Below, piece by piece: positions 6,241-62,317 of a stretch of 64,000 nt of DNA. The DNA lies in the NCBI GenBank assembly GCA_951406725.2, contig OX597828.1, positions 35,650,001-35,714,000 on the forward strand, given 5' to 3'. The DNA is from Octopus vulgaris (Eukaryota). Each line of letters starts with the position of its first letter. The stretch's first letter is position 1. The notes below the pieces were generated by a model. The model was not told the origin of the DNA. It made no database searches and worked only from the letters and a program-made list of their open reading frames with translations. The position numbers and the translations under genes are program-made.

Positions 6241-6381
6241 TATGTGTATTATTTTTATTAATATTTAGCAGAAGCATCAAAATGACTCAAAGGGCCAAGA
6301 GTTTTGTGCAAGGGTTTTGTGAAACTCTTGGCCCTCAAATCACTCTGTTACTCGTGCTAAATATTAATAAAAATATACATA
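6241..6381. repeat. Diverged fold-back with arms of about 63 bp
   Basis: tttttattaatatttagca...gggccaagagttt / aaactcttggccc...tgctaaatattaataaaaa. Confidence 0.75.
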
Positions 6382-9712: not shown

Positions 9713-10234
9713 CTAGCCAGCCAAAGGGCCATCTGCCCCTTGACTGGAGCCCATTCAGTTGGAAAGCTTCATAGCATTTTAGTGTGCGTGGCAACTTCAC
9801 TATTTACCCACAGTAAAAAGGTTGGCTTTAAAAAGGTCACGCAGCCATAGAAATTATGCCAAAACAGACATTGGAGCATGACGCTGTCTCCAGAATTTGT
9901 CAGAATCTGTCAAACCATCCAACTCATGCTAACATGGAACATGGCCATTAAAGGATGATGATGATGACGACGACGACAACGATGATGATGATGATGATGA
10001 TGATGTTGATGGTGATGATGATGACGGTGGTGGTGGTGGTGGTGGTGGTGCTGGTGGTGGTGCTGCTGCTGCTGCTGCTGGTGGTTGTTGTGATATACAC
10101 ACACAAAGAGGCACATGCACACATTCAGCATACATCCAAAGGGTTGCTATATACCAGATTTTAGTTATTGCATTAGTCAAATCAAGGATATGGTGAAAGA
10201 CATGTGCATATACATATATACATACATATATATA

Positions 10235-11462
10235 TTGGGTTGGCAACTAAGTTTCCACTGTTTTTTTTAATTTAAATTTTTAAAAAATTTTAATAAAAAA
10301 TAACAATTAATTAATCAATAATGTATTCACTCTTGTTGTTTATAACTTCTTCCCAACGTTCAACAAGATTTTCAATACCTCGTTGGTAGAAATCTTCCGA
10401 TTTTGACTCAAAAAATTGATCCAGCCAAGCTCTCAATTCTGCATCAGTATTGAATGAAACTCTATGCATAGCATTTGAAAGAGATCGAAAGAGGTGGAAA
10501 TCTGTTGGTGCCAAATCAGGAGGGTACGGCGGGTGTGACAGCACTTCCCAGCCATGCATTTGAATGGCTTCCTTGGTCATATTGGCGATATGAGGGCTGC
10601 CGTTGTCGTGCAGCAGAAGAACTCCATGCTGCCGATTAGGTCTTTTCTCTTGAATAGCCGTGTTGAGTCGTTCCATCTGTTGAACATAGAGTTCCGCGTT
10701 GACCGTTTGGTTCCGTTCAAGAAATTCGTAATGGATAATTCCTTCCCAGTCCCACCATACACACAACATTGTTTTATGTGGATGAAGATTTTGTTTCACA
10801 CATGGTATCACTTGTTTACCGGGGCTAAGCCATTCCTTATGCTGTTTCATATTATTGTACGGGCACCATTCTTCATTGCCAGTAATGATTCAGTAAAGAA
10901 ATCGCTGCTTATGTCCATGAGTTGAGCAGTGACAAGCAAGCAAACCAGCGGAGATTGTGGCTCATTGATTTTTGTTATTGTCACTTAAAGCATGCAGAAC
11001 CCATGCTCCATACTTCTGAAAATTTCCCACTGAGTGAAGATGCTTCTCTATAGCAGTGTGGGAGCATTCCATTTTCTCTGCTAGTTCCCTTGTTTGACGA
11101 GAATTTTCATGCAAATTTGGTTTAATCGCTTTTCATCAAACTCAACTGGGCGGCCAGAACGCGGTGCATCTTTGAGGTCAAAATTTCTATTTTTGAGCTT
11201 GGCATACCAATCCCGAGTGGTTCTTTCAGTTATGGCATCCTTTCCATACACAGCTCAAATGTCGCGAGTAGCTTTTGCGGCCTTAGAACCTTGATTAAAA
11301 GCAAAAAGAAGGATGTGTCAAAAGTGCTCGTTTTTCTTAACTTGACATTCCATTTTAATGATCTGAAAATAAACAAAAATTAACTAAAATTAACTAGAAA
11401 AAAAAAAACAAAATAGATTCCAAAATTTAAAGAAAATGGTAGCAACTTAGTTGCCAATCCAA
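10235..11462 (-). mobile_element. Full-length mariner (Tc1/mariner DD34D) transposon, inactive
   Basis: Imperfect TIRs ttgggttggcaactaagtt / aacttagttgccaatccaa, TA on both sides, 1228 bp, encloses a transposase pseudogene. Confidence 0.95.
10311..11353 (-). pseudogene. Mariner transposase pseudogene
   Basis: ATG at 11353 gives MECQVKKNEHF*HILLFAF...RSGRP. WVLHAL (WVPHEL-like) is present. HDNGSPH...YPPDLAPTD has 34 residues between the catalytic Asps. In-frame stops and frameshifts in the 5' half. Confidence 0.93.
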
Positions 11463-11475
11463 TATATATATATAT

Positions 11476-11797
11476 ATTCTACTGTGTCTGGGGAGAGTCA
11501 TATTCTTTTTGTGCCTTATAATTTAACACACTCACCAGTAAAATTTCCACTTATTTCTTATTTTTATTTTCCTAAAATTTTCGTTGCATCTTGCAACCTT
11601 TTCCATAGTCTTGACTCTATGCATAGCATTTGAAAGAGATAGAAAGAGGTGAAAATAGTCAAGACTACTGAAAATGTTGCAAGACACAACGAAAATTTTA
11701 GGAGAATAAAAATAAGAAATAAGTGGAAATTTTACCAGTGAGTGTGTTAAATTATAAGGCACACAAAGAAAATTACTCTCACCAGACACAACAGAAT
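11476..11797. mobile_element. Fold-back element beside the mariner's TA flank
   Basis: Inverted arms of about 140 bp (11476-11616, 11657-11797). The 40-nt loop matches mariner sequence at 10462-10501. Degenerate hammerhead cta-CTGAAAA-t-gttgc..acaac-GAAA-attt-tag in the right arm. Confidence 0.8.
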
Positions 11798-11972
11798 ATG
11801 CTTCAACACACGAACTCACATAAAGAATCTTGCAAACCAAATCCAAAAACCAAACATATATATATATTCATATGCATATATTTATATATATATATATATA
11901 TATAAGAATGAGTAAAAGTTCAAAAGAAATGCTCATAAACATATCAGCATTATTATTATTATTATTATTATT

Positions 11973-13936: not shown

Positions 13937-14504
13937 GATACATACATATACATATACATATATATACAAACACACACATGCACACACACATACACACACA
14001 CACGCACACACACACATAATGTGCTGTATAGAGCATGGCCGCAGTCTGAGGTTTGCAAAAGCGTGTTCTGGGACAAGTAAAAGTTGAAAGATAAAATATA
14101 TATATATATATTTATCTATATATACATTTTTAAACACCCATATATAAGCATGCATACACATGATATGTAGGTATTTAGTCCTTTGTAAAATGGAAAATCT
14201 TCAGAATTACAATTAATTAATAACTAATTACTCATCTCTCCTCTGCCTTACTACCATCACCAACACTACCACACAACAAGGAGGTTTCTATGAAGTTGCT
14301 CAACATGCTAGAAATCATAGCCAAATCACCATCAAAACACATCCTAGCACTTTGAAAAGCAAAAAAAAGATGAGTACATTTATAATGTCCTATCAAAAAT
14401 GAACATTATTTACATTATTTACATTTGACAGATATTTGTCCTCATCAGGTGTCTTCAGAAAATTTCGAACCTGGGTTCTCATTCCTAAGTTATTTTTCCA
14501 TGTA

Positions 14505-14557
<53 letters not shown>

Positions 14558-14719
14558 GATTATTATTATTATGATTATTATTATTATTATTACTACTACT
14601 ATTATCATTCAGGTCACTGCCTGGAATCGAACTCGAAATCTTGTGGTTAGTAGCCCACGTTCTTAACCATTATGCCGTATGCTCGTGGGCAAGATTCCAA
14701 GTTTGATTCCAGCCAGTGA

Positions 14720-14785
<66 letters not shown>

Positions 14786-14786
<1 letters not shown>

Positions 14787-14868
14787 TTCCAACCTGTTGT
14801 CTCTTGAGGTCTCTGGGTGAGACTTGGAGCCAACTTGTACAAATATAAAGCAAAAGTCAAACATAGAA
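14786..14868 (+). mobile_element. Short insertion in (AAT)n, probable 3' tail of an R4-like LINE
   Basis: About 80 nt of unique sequence interrupting the AAT tract of one arm of the 14.4-15.1 kb inverted pair; absent from the other arm. Confidence 0.4.
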
Positions 14869-14926
14869 TAATAATAATATCGAAAACTACCTTAGGAATG
14901 AGAACCCAGGTTCGAAATTTCACCAA

Positions 14927-14972
14927 GACACCTGATGAAGGCTGGAGGGTATATCAGCCAAAACATTATGTT
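14927..14972 (+). ncRNA. Degenerate hammerhead motif in a SINE-like element
   Basis: GACAC CTGATGA a GGCTG-gagggtatat-CAGCC aAAACaTT aTGTT. Three G-to-A changes separate it from a canonical GAAAC-GUU-GUGUU motif. Confidence 0.55.
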
Positions 14973-15619
14973 AACAACAAACAAGATGAGGACAAAACTC
15001 CATCAAATGTAAATAATGTAAATAATGTACATAATTCCTCATCTCTTAAATATAGAACTGTATTATCAAAAAATAAAAAGAAAATGATAGGATGGTCATA
15101 GCTGGAATGCCTTTTTTGATAATTGGCCAAATTGGGTCTAAACGACAACAGCAACACATAATTTATGTCACTAAGACACTGAAGTTTCAAAAGTTGAATC
15201 CATCAAGCTTGTAAGTCGTCAGATATCACTAAGTGGAATAGTCTTTCAAGACAAATAGTACGGTAGTATTGTAAAAACTAAAGATATGAAATAAATAAAA
15301 TAAAAATTAAATAAAATAAAATATTGCCAAGGTATTTTTTTTTATTTTGTTTTTTGTTGACTAGCAGTGCCAAGCTATTTGATTATCAAAGATATGATGC
15401 TGCAAAATTATTATTTGCAATAAATTTTGTAATATAATACCTGTATTACAATAATACAATTTTCTCTGATAAGAAAAAAGAAATACAATTTATCATCACG
15501 ACTGCTGAACCAGACCAAGCCATTCACAAACAAAAAAAAAAAACCATAAAATATTTTAAAAAATAAGCTGCTTCAGAATCCAGTGTTAACTGTTTATAGA
15601 GATAACAAAATTTATTTAC

Positions 15620-16075
15620 AATATTACACTATAATGATATTTGCTTTCACCTACAATATTACAATTTAATACTATCTACATTCACCTACAATATCACAGC
15701 TTAACGATATGTGCATTTGCTAACGACATTAGAATCAAATGATGACTGCAGACACCTACATTATTGCAATTTAATGATAACCTGCATTCACCTTGAGTAT
15801 TTGAATTTGCGATGACTGCATACAACCAATAACATTACAGTCTAATGTTATCTGCATTCATCTTCAATATTACAATTTAATGATAACAAGAATTACCTAT
15901 GGTATTACAATTTAACGATGCTGGCATTCACCTACAATATTTCAATTTAGTGTTGACTGCATTCACCAGTAATAATATTATTCTAATGATCTCCAAATTT
16001 ATCCTTCGATATTACAATTTAATGATAACGGGAATAACCTACAATATTACAGTTTAATGACAAAGACATTTACCT
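15620..16075 (+). repeat. Degenerate minisatellite of about 37 bp
   Basis: Recurrent cacctacaatattacaatttaatgata..tgcatt units. Confidence 0.7.
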
Positions 16076-16143
16076 ATTATATTGCAAATTAATAATAATT
16101 GCATTCTCTGAGCATTTTGCCATCAGTGATAACCTACTAACAT

Positions 16144-22939: not shown

Positions 22940-24602
22940 TACATGCTCACACACACACACATGTGGGTTAAGATGGTTTTACTTAGCCAACGAAACTACT
23001 TCATTCAATTTATGTTATCAGTTTTGACATTCGGTTTTTTGTTTTTTTTTCAATGTTCTGTGCCGCTCAGAGACAAGCAGCCAACATCAAATACATAACA
23101 TAAAAGATTTTGTTTTAATTAGTTCCAACCAGCCGCCTATACAGTCTCTAAACCAAACCGTTATCTTATATACTCATTAATAAACCAAAACATTCTTCAT
23201 ATTAACCATGTGAACTGAATAACAAGAAGTATTTGGCAAAAGTTGTCAAACATTTCCTGTCTTTGAAGCTTAGAACAATCAATATATAGATTGTAGATAA
23301 TAATTAGGAAGTTTTACCATCAATGTAATTATTCATATTGGGATGGAATTCTTTCTTGTTAAGACATGCAACCACGTAGGGGGAGAAGTCTTTGAATAAG
23401 AACCAGTTGGCAAAGTTGTTAGAATGTTGGACAGCACGAACTATGCTATTTGTTGTGGTTCTCTGTTGTCTGTGTTTAAATCTCACATGGACCAACTTTG
23501 CCTTTCATCCTACCGTTAAAATTTTAATTCACAGTCTATTTGATCTGTTTTGTCTGTTTTGCCATTAGAGATATGTCGGGATTTTGGAAAAGAGCAGAAT
23601 GTATTGGCTGATGTGCAACAATTCGTCCTGATTGTTTTAAACCCATCCAGTCGGGTGACGACTGTACACCTGACCCTTTTATGGGGCCTCTGTAATTAGC
23701 TGGAAGAAAGTATCCTCAAACCAAAACCCAAGCCTGAAACTTGCAACACTGTAGACACTATTAAATGCATCTAAGGTGGCAGGAGGTGACAGATTGAGTC
23801 TACCACTCGAGTAAATTACAGCATGATTTGAACTCAGAAGGCAAAAAACTGGAATAAATACTGCAGGGTGTTCTGTCCAACATTCTTACAGTTCACCAAT
23901 TCACCACCCGGGATAGACCAATGGATTGTGGTATTTGTCCCATCCCATCCCTTTGCCTTCTGAATTCAAATCATGCTGTAGATAAATTGCATAGCAGACT
24001 TAATCCAGCCGAAGCTTGAGATATGTTTTACCAGACACAAGGTCAAGGTGTGTATGTCTTATGCAACATTACTCGAAAATAATTGTCCATATTGCTACCA
24101 ACATGATTATCTGAGATTTGTAGTGAAATTCTAATCCAAATACATATGGAATTTCCTGAAACGACTTTGGAATCTTAGCAACAATGAGCATTTCTGCCAT
24201 AGGTATCGTGTGACACGATTTGAGGAGAGATACAGACGCTTTGATCGATTATAGTACTTCACTGATAAACTTCCAACCCCACGTACAAAGGACTCTAAAT
24301 CAATCTCAGTAAGATTTGAACTCAGAAAATCTTGCTATGGATTCCGCCAAATCATCGCCTTTAATACTGAATGTAGAAAAAGGCTGTTTTCTTTGCCACC
24401 ACCACCACTACCTACCTTAATTATTCTTCAATTGAAGTTGAGGTTGAATGGTTTCGTTCTGTGACACTGAAATCAGAGCGTGACGATGTAGATAGATTTT
24501 ACGTGATCCTCAACGAAACTCGGAGGTAACGCAAATTAATCTCACATAACTGAAATTAGATCAACAAAGCATCAACAGACTATATACGTATATAAGTGAC
24601 CG

Positions 24603-24844
24603 TTCGCTATACAGTTTGTTCTAATAGAGTGCCGTTGATATGAGCTCTCCTTCCACTTTTATGAATACATAAGTCAACCGGTGGTTTGTTGTGAGAATTT
24701 CTAAACGCGGGATTGGGAGCTTAGAAGCTTGTTCGCTTAACGATTAGAAATTTTCTCAACAATCCGCGAGTTGACTATGTATTCATAAAGGTGGAAGGAC
24801 AGCATATATGAAAGGTACTCTATTAGAACAAGCTGTATAGCGAA
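24603..24844. repeat. Diverged inverted repeat with arms of about 100 bp
   Basis: ttcgctatacagtttgttctaatagagtgcc... / ...ggtactctattagaacaagctgtatagcgaa, spacer about 39 nt. Confidence 0.8.
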
Positions 24845-26086: not shown

Positions 26087-26250
26087 CAGGCACAGGCGTG
26101 GCTATGTAGTAAGAATTTTGCTTCCCAACAATTTCGTCCCGATTTAGGTCCCGCTACGTGGCACCTTGGGCATGTATCTTCTACTATGGCCTCAGGCCGT
26201 CCAAAGCCTTGTGACTGGATTTGATAGACGGAAACTGGAAGAAGCTCCTA

Positions 26251-26346
<96 letters not shown>

Positions 26347-26589
26347 TTATATATATTATCTATGTATGTACGTGCGTGTGTCTTTGTGTCTGTGTTTGAC
26401 CCCGCCCCATCATTGCTCGACAACGGGTGTTGATGCGTTTACAAGTCCATAACTTAGTGGTTCGGCAAAAGAGGCCGATAGAATAAGTACTCGGTTTTAA
26501 AACTAAGCCCTTGGGTGGATTTCTTCAACTACTAACCCTCCAGCATGGCCGCAGTCAAATGATTGAAACAAATGAAAGAATAAAAGAAT
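26087..26589 (+). mobile_element. SINE family C with internal (TA)n/(TG)n
   Basis: Colinear with 48555-49030. Confidence 0.75.
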
Positions 26590-26629
26590 AATTTCTTTTT
26601 CTAATTCCTGCGACTGTACTATTTTTTTT

Positions 26630-26753
26630 TATAATGCGTGGTAAGATGTTTGCTTCGCACCCAATCACATGGTTCCAGGTTCGGTCCTACTCTGCGGAAC
26701 TTTGTCTTCCTTATGAGTGGATTTTAGTGGACAGGAACAGAAAGAAGACGCCT

Positions 26754-26798
<45 letters not shown>

Positions 26799-27030
26799 TG
26801 TGTGTGCGCGCGCGTGTGTGTGTGTGTATTTGTCCCCCACCACCGCTTAACAGCTACTGTTTGTGTGTGTATGTCTCCGTAACTTAACGGTTTGACAATA
26901 GAGTGTGTTACAATTAGTACCAGGCTTTAAAACAATAAGTATCCGAGTCGATTTATTCGACTAAGATTTTTTCAAGATTTTGCCTCAGCATGGCCGCAGT
27001 CTAATGACAGAGACAAGGAATAATTAAAAG
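26630..27030 (+). mobile_element. SINE family C, degenerate
   Basis: Shares atggttccaggttc, tttgtcccccac, aacttaacgg and cagcatggccgcagtc with family C. Confidence 0.65.
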
Positions 27031-27045
27031 ATCTGTTGTCGCTTT

Positions 27046-27313
27046 TTTCTTTTATTCTTTTACTTGTTTCAGACATTTGACAGTGGCCGTGCTGGAGCAC
27101 CACCTTTACTACAGCAAATCTACCCCACGACTTATTCTTTGTAAGCCCAGTACTTATTCTATTGGTTCCTTTTGCCAAAGCGCTAAGTTACGAGGACGTA
27201 AATACACCAGCATCGGTTGTCAAGCGATGGTGAGGGACAAACACAGACACACATACATATATATATATATATATACACATACATATATATATGTATATAT
27301 ATATATATGTATG

Positions 27314-27368
<55 letters not shown>

Positions 27369-27521
27369 GATGGGCTTCTTTCAGTTTCCGTCTACCAAAT
27401 CCACTCACAAGGCTTTGGTCGGGCCGACGCTATAGTAGAAGACATTTGCCCAAGGTGCCATGCAGTAGGACTGAACCCGGGTCCATGTGGTTGGTTAGCA
27501 AGCTACTTACCACACAGCCAC
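27046..27521 (-). mobile_element. SINE family C
   Basis: Colinear with 59221-59609. Confidence 0.8.
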
Positions 27522-28318
27522 GGGTAATTATTTTGTATGGCTTTAAAATGACACGCATGAAGTTAATAGAGGAAAAAGACCAACTCAAGACTCCCTTGCT
27601 CACAATATATAAATACAGATCATGTGTCGATAGCCAGCTAGAAAACATGTTTTCCTGGGGCTAAAAAGTACTGACAATGTCGTACGTACGACTATCACGT
27701 TGCGTTGGCAAATAGACTTTATCGGATCCCGATTCGCTATTGGTAAAATACTGTCAGGGGAAATAACTCTAATATTACAAACAACTGTATATTAGAGTTA
27801 TTTCCCTTAACATATAATTGAACGTTTTGTCTCGCTTTACGTCACATCTTGTTCTTACATAATATGCAACAACTTCGTAAAGATTTTATTGCGATTGTGT
27901 AGATGGAACTTGGTAGCAATTAAAGTAGTAGTAGTAGGGCTGTTAGTGAACAGATTTGGTGCAACGTACCATTAAATGCATTGCTGTTACGCACTTAGTT
28001 TCATTTGTTTACTTTAATGAGTTCAAATTACGCGAGGACTTTTTTTTTCGTCTTTCCAAATTTGCTATAATATTAAGTACTATAAAGTACTGAGGGGGAT
28101 TAAATTGGCGATGTCTCCCTTTCAATATGGTATTTGTGAATAGTTTGGCAATTTGCGGTACACTTCCACTGCAAAGAAAAGCACAGCGGTTTCAACTTTG
28201 AGTTAATAGCAATCATTTCGTTGTTTGTAGATGTGTCTGTGTGTGCGCGCGCGTGTGTGTGTGTGTGTGTGTGCGTGCGTGTGCGTGCGTGCGTGTGCGT
28301 GCGTGCGTGCGTGCGTGC

Positions 28319-37161: not shown

Positions 37162-37373
37162 TGTTATAATTTATAACAAACCATAAAAAGTTGTAATTAT
37201 AGTACTCAGAGTTTCAAATGTTGGAATGAAGAGCTATGATGCATTCTTGTCGGCTATTAATAGCAACAGACCCATTAATAGCCAACAAGAATGCATCGCA
37301 GCTCTTCACTTCGACATTTGAAACTCTGAGTACTATAATGACAAACTTTTACAGTTTGTTACAAATTATAACA
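37162..37373. repeat. Fold-back element with arms of about 100 bp and a 12-nt loop
   Basis: Inverted arms 37162-37261 and 37274-37373. Contains GAAACTCTGAGTA like the 7.5 kb hammerhead. TA-flanked. Confidence 0.85.
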
Positions 37374-38920: not shown

Positions 38921-38925
<5 letters not shown>

Positions 38926-39020
38926 GAAATGAAGAAAATGCTGACAAAATAATTTAAGTAAGGGAGAGTGCATTAAAATTTACTTAAATTATTTTGTCAG
39001 CATTTTCTTCATTTCCTTTT
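38921..39020. repeat. Short fold-back with arms of about 40 bp at (TA)n
   Basis: aaaggaaatgaagaaaatgctgacaaaataatttaagtaa / ttacttaaattattttgtcagcattttcttcatttccttt, 18-nt loop. Confidence 0.85.
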
Positions 39021-39126
39021 TTTATATATCACAACTCGTGTTCCACATCTCCTTTTTTAAATATATATATATATATATGGTAGAAATATGTTTTGAAAAA
39101 AATATAAAATACACGTGGAAATGTAA

Positions 39127-39535
39127 GGGTAAAATATGAAAAATCAACGAAAATGCATATTGTAGATATAAAAAGGCTATTTATGACAGGTAGTGACAAA
39201 TATATACATTTAGAGTATTACTAGTCAAAAAGGTCATTATTATTGATGATTATAAGAAGTTAATAATAATAATAATAATGTAAGAGACTGAAACGAACCA
39301 ATTGGTTTTCGCGTTAGCTATTCATCGTTTTCAAAACGATGAATAGCTAACGCGAAAACCAATTGGTTCGTTTCAGTCTCTTACATTATTATTATTATTA
39401 TTAACTTCTTATAATCATCAATAATAATGACCTTTTTGACTAGTAATACTCTAAATGTATATATTTGTCACTACCTGTCATAAATAGACTTTTTATATCT
39501 ACAATATGCATTTTCATTGATTTTTCATATTTTAC

Positions 39536-39537
<2 letters not shown>
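39127..39537. repeat. Near-perfect 411-bp palindrome between (TA)n tracts
   Basis: 205-bp arms with a single-base centre at 39332; two mismatches seen by eye. Confidence 0.95.
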
Positions 39538-39593
<56 letters not shown>

Positions 39594-41759: not shown

Positions 41760-41807
<48 letters not shown>

Positions 41808-41981
41808 ATAAATATTAGGGAATAAATCCAAATTTACAGGGAAAAATCAGATTTAGGATTAAATCCAATTTTATAGTAAAATATTATATAATATAATTCG
41901 AGACAAAACCACTATTTTGCAAAACAAACAAGGAAAGACTTAATCAATACATAAAAATTTTTAATATAAAGAAATAAACCG

Positions 41982-42024
41982 CCACTACAATCGTTTCATG
42001 TCTTCAATGACATTCGTCAGGTGG
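41982..42024 (-). ncRNA. Minimal type I hammerhead ribozyme, intact core
   Basis: Minus strand: CCAC CUGACGA AUGUC-auugaa-GACAU GAA AC-gauu-GU A GUGG. Stems I, II and III pair, all core nucleotides are present, and the cleavage triplet is GUA. Confidence 0.8.
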
Positions 42025-42219
42025 ATTTTCGATCTCCTAATCTGTTACACACACATATATGTATGTATGTATGTATAGATATATATGTTGCATAGCATAC
42101 ACATATATATATATATATCAGTATCCATACATACAAATACACACACACACACCAAACACACACGCAAATGTGCATACTACATTTTTGTATAAATTAAAAC
42201 AGATTAGGAGATCGAAAAT

Positions 42220-42262
42220 CCACCTGACGGATGTCATTGAAGACATGAAACGATTGTAGTGG
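42220..42262 (+). ncRNA. Inverted copy of the same hammerhead with an A9G core change
   Basis: ccac ctgacgG atgtc attgaa gacat gaaa cgattgta gtgg. Confidence 0.7.
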
Positions 42263-42347
42263 CGGTTTATTTCTTTATATTAAAAATTTTTATGTATTGA
42301 ATAAGACTTTCCTTGTTTGTTTTGCAAAATATGGTTTTGTCTCGAAT

Positions 42348-42393
<46 letters not shown>

Positions 42394-42535
42394 GTAGTAT
42401 GCACATTTGCGTGTGTGTTTGTGTGTGTGTGTGTATTTGTATGTATGGATACTGATATATATATATATGTGTATGCTATGCAACATATATATCTATATAC
42501 ATACATACATATATGTGTGTGTATATATATGTATT

Positions 42536-42636
<101 letters not shown>

Positions 42637-43039
42637 CATAAATACATATATATACACACACATATATGTATGTATGTATGTATAGATATATATGTTGCAT
42701 AGCATACACATATATATATATATATATCAGTATCCATACATACAAATACACACACACACACCAAACACACACGCAAATGTGCATACTACATTTTTGTATA
42801 AATAGTGAGTCCATAAAACCTGTTACAAATATAAACAAATATATTCTTACATTTATCAGGAAGGCAGGTGGATTGCATCTCTAAAACTAAAAACATATTC
42901 ATACAAATCTGTATGTACATACATTCATTAATACATTAATACATTCATAAATACTTATGAACATACATACATACAGACATGCATACACTCACATGCACAT
43001 ATACATAAGCATTTATATTTGTGTATTTGAATATATATA

Positions 43040-45606: not shown

Positions 45607-45900
45607 TATAATTACATACATAATTATAACAAGGGATTGGCTTTACACCTCACCATGCACTGCAAGAAATAGTCGCTAAAGCCCCTGTTACCACTTTAAA
45701 ATCTCTGAGAATAGCCAAAAGAAAAATAGGCAACCAAAAGAAAAATAATGAATCATCATTATTTTTCTTTTGCTCACCTACAATATAGTGTGTTATTCTT
45801 GGAGATTTTAAGGTGGTAACATGAGCTTTAGCATCTATTTCTTGCAATGCATGGTGAGGCATAAAGCCAATCCTTTGTTATAATTATGTATATAATTATA
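45607..45900. repeat. Fold-back element with arms of about 108 bp and a nested hairpin in the loop
   Basis: Arms 45607-45714 and 45793-45900; inner hairpin 45735-45772. The right side extends to the TA tract at about 45985. Confidence 0.85.
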
Positions 45901-47877: not shown

Positions 47878-48554
47878 GCAGGTGCACCTCTATACAGCTA
47901 CATGGAGGAGACCCCCTTCGGTCATAAATGACCATAGGATTGCGCCTAGAAAGTTGAAGCGGACTCGTGGTTGAGGGATTGCAGGTTCAAATCTCAGACC
48001 ATGTGATGTGTGTGTGTTTATGAGCGAAACACCTAAGCTCCACGCGGCTCCGGCAGAAGGTGAAGGCGAATTTCTGCTGACTCTTTCGCCACAACTTTTT
48101 CCTCCTGCATCTTGCAGATCACCTGCAATGGACCAGTGTCCCATTCAGGTGGGGAACCTATACTCCAAGAAAACCGGGAAACCAGCCCTAAGAGCAGGCA
48201 TGGCTTGAGAAGGAACAACAATATAATCCAGAGTTAGAATCAGTACGACATGAGTGTGACAAGGCCAGACCTTAAAAATACAAGTGAAATTCATCCAAAG
48301 GGTTTCTATGCAGTTTCTGTTTTCTTAAATTCTCTTAGAAAGCTTGAGTAAATCTGAAGTAGACTTGCCATTGCCATGAGGTCCCGAGTTTGAACCCAGA
48401 ACCTTGTAGCTGTGAAGCAAACTTCTTAACCACACATCTATGCCTGTATTTCATAGGGTATACACATACAAGTCCCATCAAAAGTAAATTAGACAGCTAA
48501 TGATGACTTTATTTTAATAAATGAAAACTATCTCAGTTGAAATCCTGCATATAT

Positions 48555-48734
48555 AGGCGTAGGAGTGGCTGTGTGGTAGGTAGCTTGTTTAAGAACCACA
48601 TGGTTCCAGGTTCAGTCCCACTGCATGGCCCCTTGGGCAAGTGTCTTCTACTATAGCCTCAGTCCGACCAAAGCCTTGTGAGTGGATTTAGTAGACGGAA
48701 ACTGAAAGTAGCCCATCGTATATATGTGTGTGTG

Positions 48735-48784
<50 letters not shown>

Positions 48785-49030
48785 TATACATATATATACA
48801 TATATATCTATGTGTATGTATGTGTATGTATGTTTGTGTGTATGTCCTCCCAACATTGCTTGACAACATTGCTGGTGTATTTATGTCCTCATAACTTAGT
48901 AGTTCGACAAAAGAGACTGATAGAATAAGTACTAGGTTTAAAAAGAATAAGTCCTGGGGTCGATTTGCTTGACTAAAGGCGGTGCGCCAGCATGGCCACA
49001 GTCACATGACTGAAACAAGTAAAAGAGTAA
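48555..49030 (+). mobile_element. SINE family C, full length
   Basis: Head ggcgtaggagtggctgtgtggt...ggttcagtcc, CORE-like cttgggcaagtgtctt, internal microsatellite, tail gactgaaacaagtaaaagag. Confidence 0.85.
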
Positions 49031-49489
49031 GGAGTGAGAGTATACCAATAATATTTATAAGAATACAAGTGTGGGTTTGTGGTTAAGAACCGTGCTTTGC
49101 AAACAGAGGTTCTGGAATCGATCTTACTGTATGCCATCTAAGGTAAGTGTCTTTTACTACAGCCTGGGGGTTAACCCAAGCCATGAATCTGAAGTGGGCA
49201 GACAAAAACTTTGTAGATCTTCGTAGGAAGCAGCGTACTTGTAATTCAAGGTCTAGTTCTATCATACTTCGTATCAACTTTTAACTTGTTTTGGTTTTGA
49301 TATTCTGAGATGTTTCACGGTGTTTTATAGATAGAGAGTTAGTTCCTTCACAGGTCATTTTTAACAGCGCATGACAGGAACTAGGAGAGGCTATAAATGG
49401 TGGTCTCTTGGAATGCCAGGAAGAGAGGTTCTTACCATGAGTTTCTTCGTGGTATTCGGATATAGATATGCAACGTTCATTGTAATATC

Positions 49490-49950
49490 CCTTATTTCTT
49501 TATTGCCCATAAGGGGCTGAACTCAGACGAAATACCTATTTCTTTACTACCCACAAGGGGCTAAACACAGAGGGGACAAACAAGGACAGACAAACGGATT
49601 AAGTCGATTATATCAACCCCAGTGCATAACTGGTACTTAATTTATCGACCCCGAAAGGATGAAGGGCAAAGTCGACCTCGGCGGAATTTGAACTCAGAAT
49701 GTAGCGGCAGACGAAATACCTATTTCTTTATTACCCACAAGGGGCTAAACACAGAGGGGACAAACAAGGACAGACAAACGGATTAAGTCGATTATATCAA
49801 CCTCAGTGCATAACTGGTACTTAATTTATCAACTCCGAAAGGATGAAAGGCAAAGTCGACCTTGGCAGAATTTGAACTCAGAACGTAGCGGCAGACGAAA
49901 TACCGCTAAGCATTTTGCCCGGCATGCTAACGATTCTGCCAGCTCACTGC
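49490..49950 (-). mobile_element. SINE family D with a tandem internal duplication of about 185 bp
   Basis: The unit cagacgaaatacctatttcttta...gaatttgaactcagaa occurs twice (about 49523 and 49708). Head at about 49950. Confidence 0.8.
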
Positions 49951-50105: not shown

Positions 50106-50329
50106 AGGCACTGACACCACCGAGACTCTAGAAAGAGTGGAGAAATAAATGAAGTGAGCAGAACAGATATTCGTTACAGAAGACGTAAATTCTGACGCGA
50201 AAAAGAAAAGTCCGATATATACGTGATCTGATCAACAAGTATTCAGACTGTTGTCATAGTAACGAAGCTAAAGCACGCAAAGAGAAATCACTTGGCACAG
50301 ATTGACCTTGAACTCTACAGTGCATGTGC

Positions 50330-52065
50330 ACTAAGTTCCGAGGGAGAAGGGAAAGAGGGGGACTTCCTGAAAAGTACCGAGGAGCAGGAAGGGGAGGAGT
50401 AAAAGGATTTCCTGGGAAGTTCCGGTGGAAGGGGACGAACGGATGGGATTCCTGAAAAGTTCCAAGGACAGGAAGGATGAGGAAGGCTTCCTGGAAATTT
50501 TCGAGGACGGGGAGGAGGGAAGGACTTTCTGGAAAATTCCGAGGAAGGAGAGACAACCTGAAAGGTTCCGAAGTGTGGAAGGGAAGGAGTAGATGTTCAA
50601 ATGAGTAGATGACTTCCTGGAAAGTTCCAAGGGGTGGAGGAAGTGGCACAGGGTAAAAGACTTCTTGGAAAGTTCCAAGGATGTGGAATGGGATTAGGGG
50701 AACGACTGCCTGGAAAGGTCCAAGGACCGGAAGGAGGGAGTAACTTCCTGGAAAGTTGCGAGAACGGAGAGGATGGGGAAGGACTTTTTGGAAATTTCTG
50801 AGAAGAGAAGAAAGAGGGAGAGGGGAAAGACCTTCTGGGAAGGACTTTTTGGAAAGTTCCGAGGTTCTGGAAGGGTAGGAGGTGGATGGACTTCCTGGAA
50901 AGTTCTGAGGAGGGGAGGACATCCTGGAAGGTTCAGAGGAGGGGGAGGAAGTGGAGAAAACGAAAGTCATTCTAGAAAATTCCGAGGAAGTGGAAGGGGA
51001 GGAGGGGAAGGACGTCCTGGAAAGTTCCGACGGTAGGAAGGGGGAAAGGGTAGGGGAGGTACTTCCTGAAAAGCTCCAAGGATGTTGAAGAGGAGGGTGA
51101 GCCTTCCTGGAAAGTTCCAAAAAGGGGAGGAAGGGGAAGAAGGGGAGACACTTCCTAGAAAGATCCAAGGATGTGGAAGAGGAGAATGGGAAGGACTTCC
51201 TCGAAATTTCCGGGGACGTGGACTTTCTGGAAAGTTTCGAGGAGGGGAAGAAGGGGAGAAATGAAGAAGACGGGGTAAGTTCCGAGGATGTGGAAGGAGA
51301 GGAAGAGAAGGACCACCTGGAAAGCTCCAACGATGGGAAGGAGGATGACTTTCTGGAAAGTTCCGAGGACAGGCAAGAAGGGAAGAGTTCGTCCTGGAAA
51401 GTTCCGAGGAAGTGGGAGGGAAGGAAGGGTAGTATGAGAATGTCTACCTGGAAAGTTCTGAAGATGTAGACGGGGAGAAGGTGGATGGAATTCCTGGAGA
51501 TTTCCGAGGAGGAGGGCTTCCTGGAAAGTTCCGAGGTGGAGAAAGGGGATGAGTGTAAGGCATCCTGGAAAATCCTGAGTAGGTGGGGTGGAGGGAAAGG
51601 AATTCATGGGAAGTTCCGAGGAGGACTTCCTGGAGATTCTGAGGAAGAAGTGAATAAGGGGAAAGATTTCCTGGAAAGTTCCGACGATGTGGAAGGGGAG
51701 GAATTCTGGAAATTTCCGAGGAGGACTTCTTGGAGGAGGTGAAGGAGATGGAGGAAGAGGAGGTGGAGCAAGGGAAGGAGGTGGAGGAAAGGGAGGAGGG
51801 GAGGTCTTTTGAGAAAATTCTGAGGAAAGGGAAGGGGGTAGAGTAGGGGAGGACCTCTTGGAAAGTTCCAAGGATGTGGAAGGGGAGGAGGGGAAGTCCA
51901 TGGATAGGGAGGAAGTGGAGGATTGACTGCCTGGAAATGTCCTACTAGAGAAGAGGAGAGGACTTCCTAGAAAAGTCCAATGCAGGGGAATGGGAGAAAG
52001 AGGAGGAAGGCCTTCCTGGAAAAGTCTGAGGAAGGGCAGGAAGGTCTTCCTAGAAAAGTCCGAGA
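50330..52065 (+). repeat. Purine-rich complex minisatellite of about 40 units
   Basis: Conserved core gacTTCCTGGAAAGTTCCgagg separated by variable G/A-rich spacers; period about 30-50 bp. Confidence 0.9.
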
Positions 52066-53989
52066 AAAGTGATGAATAAAAGAATGTGGTAATTATCATT
52101 AAGTTTAGATAATGACCAAAAAATTCACATCAAAAGGGATCTCAGATCTGAGACCATAACTTTTGATTCAGATTAGAAAATTCAACAGAACTTCTGTCAC
52201 ATGTTGTCATATTAATTTTGCTTTGTTAATCAAATTATTGCTTATAAAATTATGCTCTTGCCTTAAATCCAGTCCTTAGGTCCTTGGTGGAGTTTAGGGA
52301 CACTGTCATGGGATACAGCATGTCTTGGACAATGTTAGGTTTGGCAGATCCCATTTTTTTCTGGATCTCTAACCACAGATGGTTTCCTCCAGAAAGTGAG
52401 AAAGACAAGGAGATAGAAAGTAAAGAATTGATCTCAATATATTACTGGTACATTACTTATCAAGCAAGAAAAGATGAAAATAAAACTGACATCAGCAAAC
52501 TTTGGATTCAGAGCACAAAGAATGACATCAGTTACTGCAAAGCAACCAATCAAATGCTCTAATCACTCTGCCAAATGACCAATTTTGTCATGATTTATAA
52601 TTATTACAACAACAACAACTGGCAATAATTAAAAATAAAAACTGAAATCAAAATAAAAACAATACCAAAACACATCATGGAGGAAGGATTTTTCGTTTTT
52701 CTTTATTTAATTTATATATTTTGTATAATAATAACAGAAACGAAAATAATGAACATAATAGAAATATTAAAAATAATAATTATTAATATTATTATGACAA
52801 TATTTCAGGGATTTTCTCTTTTAAAAACAATAATTGTTTTATAGAAATTGCCATTCATTCAAGTATTAACCATTAGAATTTCATGGATAAATATTACAGA
52901 TATTGATTTATTCAAAAAAAAATCGCTCATTTATATATATCAATCAATTATAGCAATCAATCAATCAAGCAATCATTTTTTTAATGTTTTATATAGTTTA
53001 TTTTGTGCTTGTTACATTTTTATAATTGTATATTTTTTGTTTTAAGTTTATTTCTTAAATTATCAGTATACAGTGTTCATGTGTAACTCTCTCTTTTGAA
53101 ACTTCATTGTTTGCATAAATTCCTATACATATGCTGAGAGAGAGACACACAGACAGAAAAATACAAAATTATTTGTTAATGTGCATAAATTCATTCAGCT
53201 CTACTTTCACATTCTGCAAGGCAACTGTGAGTGTGCATGTGTGTGTGTGTGTGTGTGTGTGTGTGCTAAAAAGCACAGAAGTACACCAGTAACAGATCAA
53301 TAACATCCAGCATTGGTGGTGGAATAGCTAGATACAGGATGTCTGCGTCTTTGCGCATCATCAGTAGCAAGCATCCAATATCAGCCAGATGCTTAGACAA
53401 ATTTTGCTTCAACTGATATAGAAAAGCAGTGATTAGCAAATCACGGATGTTTGCAAATAGCTGGCAGGGTGGGTAAAAATTCATTATAAGCAACATATTT
53501 CTTACAGCGTATCTATTTAAGTAATACATAAAGAATGCTCATATATATATATATATATGAAGAGAGAGAGAATGAGAGAAGTGGAGGAGGTAACATAATG
53601 TTAAAATTAAAAATTAAACTATAGGACAGAAAGTAAAATAGAAATAGAGCAATCGGGTCAAAATTACTGCAGTGAAAATATAGAAACCAGAAAAACAAAC
53701 AATTCTAACTGAGGCTTCCTTACTAAAATTGTCTCCCTTGTACATAAAAGTGATACTGTATCACTGAGGGAAATTACAGTGGATTTATGACATATAGTAT
53801 TAATTGTGAGAATGTGTGTGATATATTTTACAAACTATGTGGGAAAAATGAAACTATACTCTATTCTAACAACAATAAGTGTTAATATTTATATGTTTTT
53901 TTAAGGAACCAAAGCTATTTAGCTATTTGACATTGATATTACACTGGGTCCCAGAAACACTCTGATGCATTCGTATATACATATATATA

Positions 53990-57766: not shown

Positions 57767-58257
57767 TTATTGGGTTTGCATTGTGTTGGTGGTGGTGGTG
57801 GTGATCGTCGTGTTGGTTGTGGTGGTAGTGGTGGACTTTTGCAGTTGGTGAGGGTCTTTTACTGCACCCACTGTTGATATTGCTATCATCGCTGCTGCAG
57901 CTGCAATTCCTGTAGAAGCTTTTTCAGGTGATAATTGTACAAGGGGTAGAACAGGTGTTACTGATGGAGGATCTCTTGGTTCCACTGAAGTTGTTGTTGT
58001 TACTGTTGTTGTTGTTGATGTTGCTGATGCTGTTTCTCCTGATGCTGTTCCTGGTCTTGCTGTTCTTGTCCTCGTTGGCAATGGATCCACCTTTTCACTA
58101 TTACGATGTCTGCATATCAGAAGCTTCAGATCACCTTCAGGCAGGAACTTCAGGTGGTTCCAAGCATGGAAGTGGCGCTGATTTCTAAAATCTTCACCAT
58201 TCACCTCTAAGATTTCATCTCCAACTCTCATTTCACCACACTTGTCAGCAATGCCAC
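57767..58257 (-). CDS. Terminal coding exon of the pro-IL-16/PDZD2-like PDZ protein
   Basis: Acceptor tttttag|GT, phase 1. GGIADKCGEMRVGDEILEVNGEDFRNQRHFHAWNHLKFLPEGDLKLLICR completes the PDZ. The 'RIFKG...F.AWN..K.LP.G' signature is typical of the IL16/PDZD2/bbg last PDZ. A Thr-rich tail and TAA follow. Confidence 0.88.
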
Positions 58258-58534
58258 CTAAAAACAAGATGAAAAAAAAAATTAAAAGAGATAATGAGAA
58301 TAATAAAAATAAAACAAATTATTAAATTAAAAACTAAACCTTAAGCTGAATTTAAAGACTTACCATGCAAAACCTAACCAGGTTCAATGACCATTTGTCA
58401 TGAAAAATATCTAAACTTTATACTATTTGTATAAATGCCTGCTACATTCTTTGTTAATTCATTTTATTATGTAACAATTTATCACAGATTTAGACTATGT
58501 GTGTGTGTGTGTGTGTATGTATGTATATATATAT

Positions 58535-58748
58535 TCTCTTTTTCTCTTTTACTTGTTTCAGTCATTTGACTGCGGCCATGCTGCAGCACCCCCTTTAATC
58601 AAGCAACTCGACCCCGGGACTTATTCTTTCGTAAGCCCAGTACTTATTCTATCGGTCTCTTTTGCCGAACTGCTAAGTAACGGGGACGTAAAAACACCAG
58701 CATCGGTTGACAAGCAATGCTAGGGAAGCAAACACAGACACACAAAAT

Positions 58749-58783
<35 letters not shown>

Positions 58784-58937
58784 CATATATACGACGGGCT
58801 TCTTTCAGTTTCTGTCTACCAAATCCACTGACAAGGCTTTGGTCGGCCCGAGGCTATAGTAGAAGACACTTGCCCAAGGTGCCATGCAGTGGGACTGAAC
58901 CCAGAACCATGTGGTTGGTAAACAAGCTACTTGTCAC
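58535..58937 (-). mobile_element. SINE family C in a PDZ-gene intron
   Basis: Highly similar to 59221-59609. Confidence 0.85.
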
Positions 58938-59220
58938 ACACACACAACTACATATACATATGTGTGTGTGTGTGTTCGATATTATCTGGGGAATTACCTC
59001 ATAATAACCTCATTTGAAGGCTACAATACTGTTGTTGACTATCATAAGCTGGATCATATTTATGTAATTATTTATAAAACAAATTTATGTAATGGTACAA
59101 GAATGGAAACTCAGCAACTAGCAGCCGTTGCCACACCACAGAAACAAATGTTGTAATTTGTGATTAAAACCTATTTATTCCATCTTATTGTTGTATAAAT
59201 TTTTATGTATGCATATATAC

Positions 59221-59609
59221 TCTTTACTCTTTTACTTGTTTCAGTCATTTAACTGCGGCCATGCTGGAGCACCGCCTTTAGTCGAGCAAATCGACCCTGG
59301 GACTTATTCTTTGTAAGCCCAGTACTTATTCTATCGGTCTTTTTTGCCGAACCGCTAAGTGACGGGGACGTAAACACACCAGCATCGGTTGTCAAGCAAT
59401 GCTAGGGGGACAAACACAGATACACAAACACACACACGCATATATATATATACATATATACGACGGGCTTCTTTTCAGTTTCCATCTACCAAATCCACTC
59501 ACAAGGCTTTGGTCGGCCCGAGGCTATAGTAGAAGACACTTGCCCAAGGTGCCACGCAGTGGGACTGAACCTGGAACCATGTGGTTGGTAAACAAGCTAC
59601 TTACCACAC
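59221..59609 (-). mobile_element. SINE family C in a PDZ-gene intron
   Basis: Highly similar to 58535-58937 and 48555-49030. Confidence 0.85.
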
Positions 59610-59984
59610 ATATATATTAATGTTTGTTTTTATGTGAAGTTAAGAAGAAATTGAAAGATCATTCAGAATATTTTAGAATACATATTTATCAATTTTAACA
59701 AAGAAATGGTTGACAGCGGCTTCAAAGTATCAGCTTATAAACCATCATTAGACTGTATTTTACTTTGGTATTTCTGCCAAAACTAAATATTAAAAAAATG
59801 AGAAATATCAAAGTAAATCACAGCTTGGTGACAACTTATTGAGCTGAAACTTTGAAGTCCCTATCAAATTGTTCTTTATAAAAATGAATGTATGTGTGTG
59901 TGTACTAATTATTCTCAGTTGAAAAACAAAAGAGAACATTCAACTAAAAATTCTATGCATCATAAGGCATAGAATTTTACATAA

Positions 59985-60213
59985 TTTATCCCTTTGGTGT
60001 TCAGATTATTCTGTCAAATGTGATGTTTGTTTATTTATATTGTTTTGAATTAATCATGCATTATCTTGTAGTTTAGAGATTTCAGTGATGTGATTATTTT
60101 AGTTTTAGAATGACATGGTAGGGCTGAGGTGAGAGGCAAGATCTGGTCAGTTTCAATATAAAACAGGTTAAATATTTTGGCCGGATATGGCCAGTTTGAA
60201 TGCTAAAGGGTTA
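59985..60213. mobile_element. Possible degenerate piggyBac-type MITE
   Basis: Ends ttatccctttggtgttca / tgaatgctaaagggttat resemble TTAA-CCCTTT TIRs. Confidence 0.35.
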
Positions 60214-60518
60214 TTCATAGTTTGTGTTTCTAGATTTATAATCCATATTTTTGTAAAGACTGAATACTCCCCTAGAGATGCTGGTCTTCTTATGAAAGAT
60301 ATTCTAAATTGTAGAGAGATAAATGCTGTGAATAAATTGTATGAGAAAGAAAGAAAGAAAGAAAGAAAGGGAGGCAGGAAGGAAATAAAGAAAAAAGTAA
60401 GATAAATGGATAGATAGACTGTTAGATAGTTGAGGAGAGAGAGAGGTGAGGAAACAAACTAAGAAAGATTGTGTAAGTAAGAGAGAGTGAAACAGTGAGA
60501 TATGAGAATAAACGTTAC

Positions 60519-60638
60519 CTTTGAATATTCGCTTCACAGAAATTGGTCGATCTCCAAGAGGACATCCAATCCCTCCGCCTAGACTGAAGCCTAAACCGGT
60601 TACCCCTTTACGCAGGGTAATCTCGAAGGTTTCAGAAT
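60519..60638 (-). CDS. Internal exon of the multi-PDZ protein; N-terminal half of the last PDZ domain with the GLGF loop
   Basis: Not in the ORF track. Acceptor ccctttttag|AT and donor AAAG|gtaacg. 120 nt, phase 1 to 1. Translates (D)SETFEITLRKGVTGLGFSLGGGIGCPLGDRPISVKRIFK(G). Confidence 0.9.
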
Positions 60639-60702
60639 CTAAAAAGGGAAATAAATGCTTAAATAAACATTGTACGAAGTATTGAAGTAGAGATTTATTA
60701 TA

Positions 60703-61052
60703 CGTGTTCCAGTTGATCCGATCAATGGAACAGCCTGCTCATGAAATTAACACGCAAGTGGTTGAGTACTCCACAGACACGTGTACCCTTAACGTAGTTC
60801 TTGGGGAGATTCAGTATGACACAGATGACAAATGGCCCTTTGAAATACAGGTTCAACAGAAACAGGAAGAAAGAGTGAGAGAAAGTTATGGTGAAAGAGT
60901 ACAGCAGGGTTCGCCACCACCCCTTGCCGGAACCTCGCAGAGCTTTAGGTGTTTTCGTTCAATAAAGACTCACAATGCTCAGTCTGGGAATCGAAACCAT
61001 GATCCTATGACCATGAGTCCGCTGCCCTAATCACTAGGCCATTGTGGCTCCA
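60703..61052 (-). mobile_element. SINE with a family A head and a family B tail
   Basis: About 60860-61052 matches the family A 5' half; about 60703-60850 matches the family B 3' half. Confidence 0.7.
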
Positions 61053-61644
61053 CAGAAATTTATTAATCAAAACATCAAACAACGGAAGAACATGTGAAAG
61101 AAAGAGTGGCCATGATCAGAACAACCCTAACCATGACTCATCTTGTTTAGGACTGACCTAGGGCTAAACAACAGCACTACTGCTGCCTTTATCAATGAAG
61201 CCTATATGTAGTTACTTGACCATCCATAAATAGCAGCCAAATCTCCATCAAATCAAAGCCAGTCATCTTAGAAATATGAAAGACACACTGATTAAGATAT
61301 CGTTTGACACTCTGTTTGAAGAAAGATGGAATGGTCAAAGCGGGAATGTCTTTGATTAGAAGATCTTCTGGATCATCGCAAACCTGAGGTCAATGAACGA
61401 CAATGACAGAGGGATACAAAACAATGTGGTCATTTGATCTGTTAGAAATAGCAGCCAAATCTCCTTCTTGTTATACTTTATTATCATAAAATATGAAAGA
61501 AACATTGAAAAATGCATTTCTAGATGGGTTGGTCATGAATGGAACCTCTTTGATCTGTGGTCAATAATGAAATGAAGCTAAACAACTAACAGTGACAATA
61601 ACAATACAAAAACACCAACAATAGAATAACAAAACTGTAATGCT

Positions 61645-62287: not shown

Positions 62288-62317
62288 CTATAACAAACAA
62301 ATACCATCAACACTCAC

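What the first reader, a model, noticed from the sequence alone, without database searches (positions are those of the whole stretch)
11476..11797. Hairpin loop copied from the neighbouring mariner 1.15 kb away
Seen: 11614-11656 matches 10459-10501, inside the adjacent transposase pseudogene, at 41 of 43 nt in the same orientation. A 3-nt microhomology (act) overlaps the end of the left arm. The arms are unrelated to mariner and contain a decayed hammerhead-like motif. This is a second, independent case of local-DNA capture in a loop, and the donor is high-complexity sequence, so chance similarity is unlikely. Inference: microhomology-mediated templated insertion during fold-back integration into the mariner's TA flank.
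Basis: partly seen in the sequence, partly recalled or inferred. Interest (0 to 1): 0.78.

Follow-up and report, generated by a model that had tools for sequence, protein, structure and literature searches.

The report
Penelope hairpin with locally copied loop
In an octopus genome, two back-to-back stubs of what is likely a Penelope-type jumping gene enclose 38 bases that match a neighbouring dead transposon about 1 kb away, likely a copying scar left when the element inserted: a tidy example of a known kind of event, with an unusually distant donor.

Summary
11614-11656 matches 10459-10501 at 41 of 43 bases; the best of 300 shuffles reached 30. The arms are not anonymous. They carry minimal-hammerhead motifs head to head, belong to an abundant repeat family, and only the right arm has an extension: the described layout of truncated Penelope-like (PLE) insertions (no PLE ORF seen). 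It also puts the likely microhomology at 5 bases, not 3. Best model: two reverse-transcribed stubs were joined head to head, after one end briefly copied the neighbouring mariner. Snap-back of one strand, or later repair of the hairpin tip, are not excluded. Private-mutation support is thin: one derived, hypermutable base. A second hammerhead hairpin at 41807-42355 also has a locally copied loop. PLE hairpin stubs are published, and this scan noted them before in other genomes. Templated local inserts are published for L1, typically within 15 bp. I found no report of a traced local donor in a PLE junction. New variant of a known kind; modest interest.

The parts
10234..11463 (-). Decayed Tc1/mariner-type copy with terminal inverted repeats between TA tracts; longest open stretch 10311-10889
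   Evidence: ends approximate by 1-2 nt
10459..10501 (+). Donor segment inside the transposase frame; first 5 nt are the likely microhomology
   Evidence: 41 of 43 to 11614-11656
11462..11477 (.). (TA)n tract at the mariner end; inferred insertion site; its last 4 nt overlap the arm end
   Evidence: sequence
11474..11618 (-). Left (short) arm: stub of the repeat family, hammerhead sense on the minus strand
11572..11608 (-). Decayed minimal hammerhead motif of the left arm (one core mismatch to the U3-A8 form)
   Evidence: descriptor written after seeing the arms
11614..11618 (+). Likely 5-nt microhomology shared by the arm family and the donor
   Evidence: loose ends of other copies begin behind 11618; donor 10459-10463
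11619..11656 (+). 38-nt loop copied from mariner 10464-10501, 2 mismatches
11657..11799 (+). Right arm, hammerhead sense on the plus strand
11665..11701 (+). Decayed minimal hammerhead motif of the right arm (one core mismatch)
11800..11855 (+). One-sided, AC-rich extension (tail-like); family reads cover it to 11846, some copies end at 11799 or 11836; end at 11855 inferred from the TA tract
   Evidence: tables 2 and 7
41807..42355 (.). Parallel case: hammerhead hairpin of another family, left arm longer by about 75 nt, between TA tracts
42046..42194 (+). Loop of the parallel case, direct copy of 42653-42803 (0 substitutions in 149, one microsatellite indel)
42653..42803 (+). Donor of the parallel loop; an inverted, shorter copy lies at 42380-42523

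Best explanation
The hairpin is likely a dead, truncated Penelope-like insertion in the TA tract beside a mariner, and its 38-base loop was likely copied from that mariner while two likely separately primed cDNA stubs were being joined head to head. Inferred steps: (1) the element's endonuclease cut the AT-rich site and both target ends primed reverse transcription, one from the start site at 11799 (left arm), one from further out (right arm plus extension); (2) both cDNAs stopped just beyond the hammerhead; (3) the top-strand end paired by 5 bases with the mariner about 1 kb upstream and was extended 38 bases, which gives the direct orientation seen; (4) it let go and was joined to the other cDNA with 0-1 base of overlap; (5) the locus then decayed neutrally. 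Whether the element's reverse transcriptase or a host repair polymerase made the copy cannot be told. No present function is proposed.
For: Shown: the match and its chance level. Minimal-hammerhead motifs on opposite strands of the two arms: 4 hits in the window with the relaxed descriptor, all in this hairpin and the one at 42 kb, against a mean of 0.2 in 20 shuffled windows. Abundant family, AT-rich flanks behind 11799 in contigs, further ends at 11836, head-to-head joints with varied inner ends in other copies. Non-mariner continuation behind 11618 in 204 raw reads and 52 contigs; depth in bin 11588-11649 is 291, below the 352 expected if no read crossed the loop. Mariner family is about 0.047% of raw letters, a lower bound. 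Loop and neighbour share the base that makes His where 15 of 21 homologues have Arg. Ancestral-CpG-type paired differences between the arms at 11685-6 and 11736-7 fit decay after insertion. Literature: the anole PLE protein cuts and extends both strands at AT-rich DNA from two adjacent start sites (PMC11167929); inverted truncated copies with a one-sided tail are typical (PMC8557442). Parallel geometry at 42 kb: direct copy, donor on the short-arm side.
Against: No RT or GIY-YIG ORF is linked to the arms here, so PLE membership rests on layout. The extension (47-56 nt) is longer than the 30-40 nt reported. The shared derived base is a CpG-type change seen in 2 of 21 homologues; the variant table showed no row for 10459-10501 (40 of 131 rows shown). 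A random other copy, about 14% different, would still give 2 or fewer mismatches in 38 with probability 0.05-0.11. No empty-site or orthologous allele was seen, so order of events is inferred. The right junction has 0-1 nt overlap. Loops are slightly closer to their donors than arms are to each other (2 substitutions against 4.8 expected, P=0.09), as a later insertion would give. L1 templated insertions usually come from within 15 bp, not 1 kb. The parallel case sits in microsatellite-rich DNA with an extra inverted copy and was not checked against reads.
Confidence: 0.55

Rival explanations
1. Single-strand fold-back (closest to the first reader). One cDNA, the right arm with its extension, jumped to the mariner, copied 40 bases, then snapped back on itself by a 3-base overlap and copied itself to make the shorter left arm.
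For: Self-priming is the published proposal for head-to-head PLE palindromes (PMC3846280 Discussion). The arm end is itself a tiny palindrome around 11656-11667, and the window holds a loop-less fold-back at 39062-39592. It explains why the left arm is shorter.
Against: The jump into the mariner would have 0-1 nt of homology. The two bases 11617-11618 would match the family sequence by a 1-in-16 coincidence. At 11704 the arms differ by two letters that both have high contig depth in organisms A and B, a weak, post hoc hint of two templates.
Confidence: 0.2
2. Later repair. The element inserted as a near-perfect palindrome; its tip broke afterwards and was patched by microhomology-mediated copying from the nearby mariner, unrelated to the insertion itself.
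For: Loop-donor differences are fewer than arm-arm differences in both hairpins (2 of 38 vs 14 of 143; 0 of 149 vs 3 of 154; stratified P=0.09). Centre breaks in long palindromes are recalled knowledge, not checked here. Templated inserts at breaks are general (search listings).
Against: The difference is not significant. Arms of only about 150 nt with varied inner ends and few-base inserts occur throughout the family, as expected of junctions made at insertion.
Confidence: 0.14
3. Template switch to mariner RNA or to another mariner copy. The reverse transcriptase jumped from the element's RNA to a mariner transcript; the neighbour is a bystander or only the source of the transcript.
For: The top-strand loop is antisense to the transposase frame, the polarity of a cDNA. 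The family is abundant. Switches between RNAs are reported for L1.
Against: Landing beside a mariner would be a coincidence for a family at about 0.05% of letters. The loop shares the derived His base with the neighbour. The loop at 42 kb copies non-coding local DNA.
Confidence: 0.09
4. The mariner fragment is a fixed part of the arm family or a subfamily, or the match is chance.
For: Only 24 of 3410 loose-end rows and 15 of 481 joint rows were shown, so a rare subfamily is not excluded.
Against: Consensus behind 11618 is not mariner in the X1 and X22 rows, nor behind 11610 in X7; depth leaves no room for a common loop. Chance is excluded by shuffles.
Confidence: 0.02

Closest known systems
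Truncated inverted insertions with a one-sided tail of endonuclease-bearing Penelope-like elements (PMC8557442, passages; PMC3846280, passages and Discussion)
   Same: Head-to-head inverted terminal pieces, extension at one end only, AT-rich or microsatellite target.
   Different: No ORF remains; extension is 47-56 nt, not 30-40; the junction holds a traceable copy of nearby DNA.
Minimal hammerheads of metazoan PLEs (PMC4209133, passages)
   Same: Short helix I, extra base between 9 and 10.1, G10.1-C11.1, palindromic 15.2-16.2, two motifs on opposite strands close together; core nearest the U3-A8 form.
   Different: Each arm has one core mismatch and only 3 pairs in helix I; cleavage untested and unlikely.
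Poseidon element of Anolis carolinensis, PAc (PMC11167929, parts 1-2 of 4 read)
   Same: Two nearby reverse-transcription start sites in AC-rich RNA a little over 100 nt downstream of the hammerhead; AT-rich targets; both strands extended in vitro.
   Different: No sequence link was tested; that paper leaves the later joining steps open and, in the parts read, describes no junction inserts.
Host-DNA spacers in Adineta vaga Pen1 and between solo pLTRs (PMC3846280)
   Same: PLE repeats enclosing captured host DNA that differs between copies.
   Different: Those spacers are 0.9-1.5 kb, mostly between direct repeats, and in the parts read no local donor was traced.
Templated insertions at L1 integration sites (10.1101/2024.08.27.596794 and PMC11702581, passages)
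   Same: Short copy of nearby genomic DNA built into a new retroelement junction.
   Different: Reported as rare (22 cases; 3 cases) and typically within 15 bp of the site; here the donors lie 976-1018 and 298-448 nt away, between two inverted stubs.

Membership tests
Penelope-like elements (endonuclease-bearing) | ORF with PLE-type reverse transcriptase and GIY-YIG endonuclease | not testable with these tools
   The stub has no ORF; no genome is held to find the parent element.
Penelope-like elements (endonuclease-bearing) | Hammerhead motif in the terminal repeat | tested here: met
   Decayed motif in both arms, one core mismatch each; 0 hits in 30 shuffles (strict), mean 0.2 in 20 shuffles (relaxed). 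Descriptor written after seeing the arms; Rfam gave no hammerhead hit.
Penelope-like elements (endonuclease-bearing) | Head-to-head inverted truncated copies with varied inner ends | tested here: met
   This locus and joints in other copies (15 of 481 rows shown).
Penelope-like elements (endonuclease-bearing) | 30-40 nt tail on one end only | tested here: inconclusive
   One-sided extension is present and family ends occur at 11799 and 11836 (37 nt apart), but this copy runs to 11846-11855.
Penelope-like elements (endonuclease-bearing) | Insertion at AT-rich or microsatellite DNA | tested here: met
   TA tracts on both sides; AT-rich loose ends behind 11799 in X1 and X2.
Penelope-like elements (endonuclease-bearing) | Target-site duplication (optional) | tested here: inconclusive
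   Both flanks are TA tracts; no unique duplication can be read.
MITE (non-autonomous DNA transposon) | Symmetric fixed outer ends and a shared internal sequence across copies | tested here: not met
   One end extends beyond the other, and inner junctions differ between copies.
Microhomology-mediated templated insertion | Insert matches nearby DNA | tested here: met
   41 of 43, next best 27.
Microhomology-mediated templated insertion | Microhomology at the junctions | tested here: inconclusive
   3-5 nt at the left junction, 0-1 nt at the right.
Microhomology-mediated templated insertion | Insert shares private variants with the local donor | tested here: inconclusive
   One informative derived base, CpG-type, in 2 of 21 homologues; 23 of 27 homologues were aligned. 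No DNA consensus row visible.
Tc1/mariner transposons (donor) | DDE-type transposase, terminal inverted repeats, TA flanks | tested here: met
   PF01359 above cut-off; inverted ends and TA flanks.

The most novel reading that the evidence does not exclude
Copying of DNA from up to about 1 kb away, on the side of the shorter arm, is a regular step of Penelope-like integration: the element primes two cDNAs and one free end samples the neighbouring chromosome before the two are joined. Both hairpins in this 64-kb window that pass the hammerhead descriptor show it. The many copies in octopus genomes would then be a natural record of the joining step that in vitro work has left open.
Probability: 0.3. 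Interest if true: 0.6.

Novelty: new variant of a known kind. Interest (0 to 1): 0.36.

Why it matters
As a single locus it is genomic debris. Its value is as a record. How Penelope-like elements finish insertion and why they form head-to-head copies is stated to be unresolved (PMC11167929, PMC3846280). Loops with a traceable donor give strand, side, distance and microhomology for each event, so a genome-wide count could separate two-primer joining from self-priming without an experiment. It would also show a route by which these elements make short local duplications.

Tried and rejected
No whole genome is held, so neither a DNA consensus of the mariner nor other loci with flanks could be built. 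Exact scans for an arm 25-mer found nothing in genome, viral or metagenome contigs; a 27-mer of the 42-kb family found nothing in metagenome contigs. Rfam returned only sub-threshold microRNA-type matches to the stem or to microsatellites, and no hammerhead; these were rejected as chance. Folding single arms gave mixed results (z -0.4 to -2.9) and was not used as support. Laying 4 of 24 listed runs showed no piece spanning the loop and no empty-site joint among the rows printed; that is not evidence of absence. No run held half of the stretch's words. Six other hairpins (centres near 6.3, 23.9, 24.7, 37.3, 39.0, 59.8 kb) had no copy of the centre elsewhere in the window at E 0.001; a seventh (45.7 kb) had only a weak AT-rich 35-nt hit; none of the seven passed the hammerhead descriptor. 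MITE, microRNA precursor and family-wide mariner cargo were considered and rejected. PMC5785218 is not held. Earlier-finding look-ups by place and by sequence gave nothing relevant.

Full report
Setting. The window is animal DNA rich in microsatellites. An exon at 57770-58267 is 98% identical to a PDZ-domain protein of Octopus vulgaris, so the host is in or near the genus Octopus. That gene ends about 46 kb from the finding. No whole genome is held.

Observation. The arms 11474-11616 and 11657-11799 are 143-nt inverted copies with 14 mismatches. 11614-11656 matches 10459-10501 directly at 41 of 43. The next best match in the window is 27 of 43 and 300 shuffles reached at most 30; 8 of 1999 sampled unmasked 43-mers had a comparable direct match within 2 kb, all from one tandem duplication and one pair of repeat copies. 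The donor is inside a decayed mariner-type copy, about 10234-11463 on the minus strand, with PF01359, inverted ends and TA flanks.

What the arms are. I laid 4 of 24 listed runs (three contig sets from coded organisms A, B, C and one raw-read set from C) on 10100-11940 at 82% likeness. The arm family is abundant: hundreds to about two thousand raw reads deep from 1,934 million letters. Other copies form head-to-head joints with varied inner ends and few-base inserts (15 of 481 joint rows shown). Contigs end behind 11799 into AT-rich flanks; 105 raw reads end behind 11836; depth shows the family running on to at least 11846, beyond which the tool cuts reads. So the right arm has an AC-rich extension that the left arm lacks. 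Each arm holds a decayed minimal hammerhead with the marks listed in PMC4209133 (passages): extra base before helix II, G10.1-C11.1, palindromic helix III, core one change from the U3-A8 form. One other copy in table 5c reads close to that form. A descriptor written after seeing the arms gave 2 hits, both arms, and 0 in 30 shuffled windows; a relaxed one gave 4 hits, these two and both arms at 42 kb, against a mean of 0.2. Rfam found no hammerhead. Inverted truncated copies, a one-sided tail and microsatellite targets are described for Penelope-like elements (PMC8557442 passages; PMC3846280 passages and Discussion; PMC6765202 passages). The defining ORF is absent here, so the element works like, and likely is, a PLE remnant, but membership is by layout only.

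Behind 11618, 204 raw reads and 52 contigs of X1 leave the window with a consensus that is not mariner (agreement 0.66 and 0.51); X7 shows the same continuation behind 11610 (24 of 3410 loose-end rows shown). Mean depth in 11588-11649 is 291, below the 352 expected if every read stopped at 11618. The mariner piece is thus not family cargo; a rare subfamily cannot be excluded. Because the family agrees with the window to 11618, the overlap with the donor is 5 nt if the left arm was made from element RNA, 3 nt if it was copied from the right arm. The right junction has 0-1 nt.

Is the neighbour the donor? The family is abundant, but makes up only about 0.047% of raw letters in organism C (lower bound), so a distant donor would sit beside a mariner only by coincidence. 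Listed pieces of other copies differ from this one by 14%; such a copy would give 2 or fewer mismatches in 38 with probability about 0.05-0.11. Among 23 of 27 homologous proteins aligned, 21 cover the site: 15 have Arg where this copy and the loop encode His (2 have His), and 16 have Gly where this copy has Arg. The first is one shared derived base, of a hypermutable CpG type; the second falls inside the microhomology and is not independent. The variant table showed no row in 10459-10501, with 91 of 131 rows hidden. I put a local source at about 0.9, mostly on position.

Parallel case. At 41807-42355 a different hammerhead family forms a hairpin between TA tracts, with the left arm about 75 nt longer (that the extra part is element DNA is inferred). 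Its 149-nt loop is a direct copy of 42653-42803 with no substitution, and a shorter inverted copy lies between. In both cases the copy is direct and the donor is on the side of the shorter arm, 976-1018 and 298-448 nt away. Two cases are no statistic, and the second was not checked against reads. Seven other hairpins showed no convincing copied centre; a near-perfect fold-back at 39062-39592 has no loop.

Mechanism. The anole PLE protein cuts AT-rich DNA and extends both strands from two adjacent start sites, which explains the tail (PMC11167929, parts 1-2 of 4 read). From that I infer two cDNAs, one per target end, meeting head to head. The left one would be primed from the TA tract, whose last four bases match the arm end. 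Its 3' end would pair by 5 bases with the mariner, copy 38 bases, and be joined to the other cDNA. This accounts for the extension, the orientation and the microhomology; confidence 0.55. Snap-back of a single cDNA, the published proposal for PLE palindromes, needs a homology-free jump and a 1-in-16 coincidence; 0.2. Later repair of the tip is favoured slightly by loops being closer to donors than arms to each other (2 vs 4.8 expected, P=0.09); that such palindromes break at the centre is recalled; 0.14. A switch to mariner RNA fits the polarity; 0.09. Paired CA/TG differences between the arms at two sites point to neutral CpG decay.

Known and new. PLE hairpin stubs are in print, and this scan noted them in other genomes (unchecked AI notes, seen after my reading was recorded). 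Host DNA between PLE repeats is in print without a traced donor in the parts read. Templated local inserts are in print for L1: 22 cases, typically under 250 bp and within 15 bp, and three cases near the site. Supplementary figures of these two preprints were not seen and may hold longer distances. Ten library searches (listings and abstract starts only, apart from the papers named) showed no report of a local donor in a PLE head-to-head junction; the library lacks most subscription papers, and PMC5785218 was not held.

Verdict. Real, locus-specific, likely an integration scar of a Penelope-like stub. New variant of a known kind; interest 0.36, rising to about 0.6 if a genome-wide count shows the pattern is regular.

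Noticed in passing
window 41807-42803: Second hammerhead hairpin with an intact core in the left arm, a 149-nt loop copied from 42653-42803, and an inverted copy of the same flank at 42380-42523 that makes a second palindrome centred on a TA tract.
   Followed up: partly
window 39062-39592: Near-perfect fold-back palindrome (98.8% over the unmasked 411 nt) with no loop; a partial hammerhead-like core lies next to the tip but did not pass the descriptor.
   Followed up: partly
window 14399-15060: Inverted pair of a third family with a hammerhead-like core at about 14932 (decayed downstream), enclosing a second inverted pair 14547-14786 with ATT tracts.
   Followed up: no
window 37177-37358, 45627-45880, 38923-39018, 24603-24844, 59692-59885, 6253-6372, 23817-23980: Further hairpins of unknown family; centres have no convincing copy elsewhere in the window.
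   Followed up: partly
window 11798-11855: The one-sided extension begins with an ATG and reads open into the TA tract; it could be the start of the parent ORF, untested.
   Followed up: no
window 57770-62498, minus strand: Last exons of a PDZ-domain gene, 98-100% identical in two exons to an Octopus vulgaris protein.
   Followed up: partly
window 50254-52130 and 15601-16106: Long diverged tandem arrays; the first is purine-skewed and has open frames up to 449 codons.
   Followed up: no
window 49524-49904; 58520-58940 and 59204-59610; 26088-27522; 48548-49035: A 184-nt tandem duplication, and several copies of one abundant dispersed repeat (SINE-like label is recalled, not tested).
   Followed up: no
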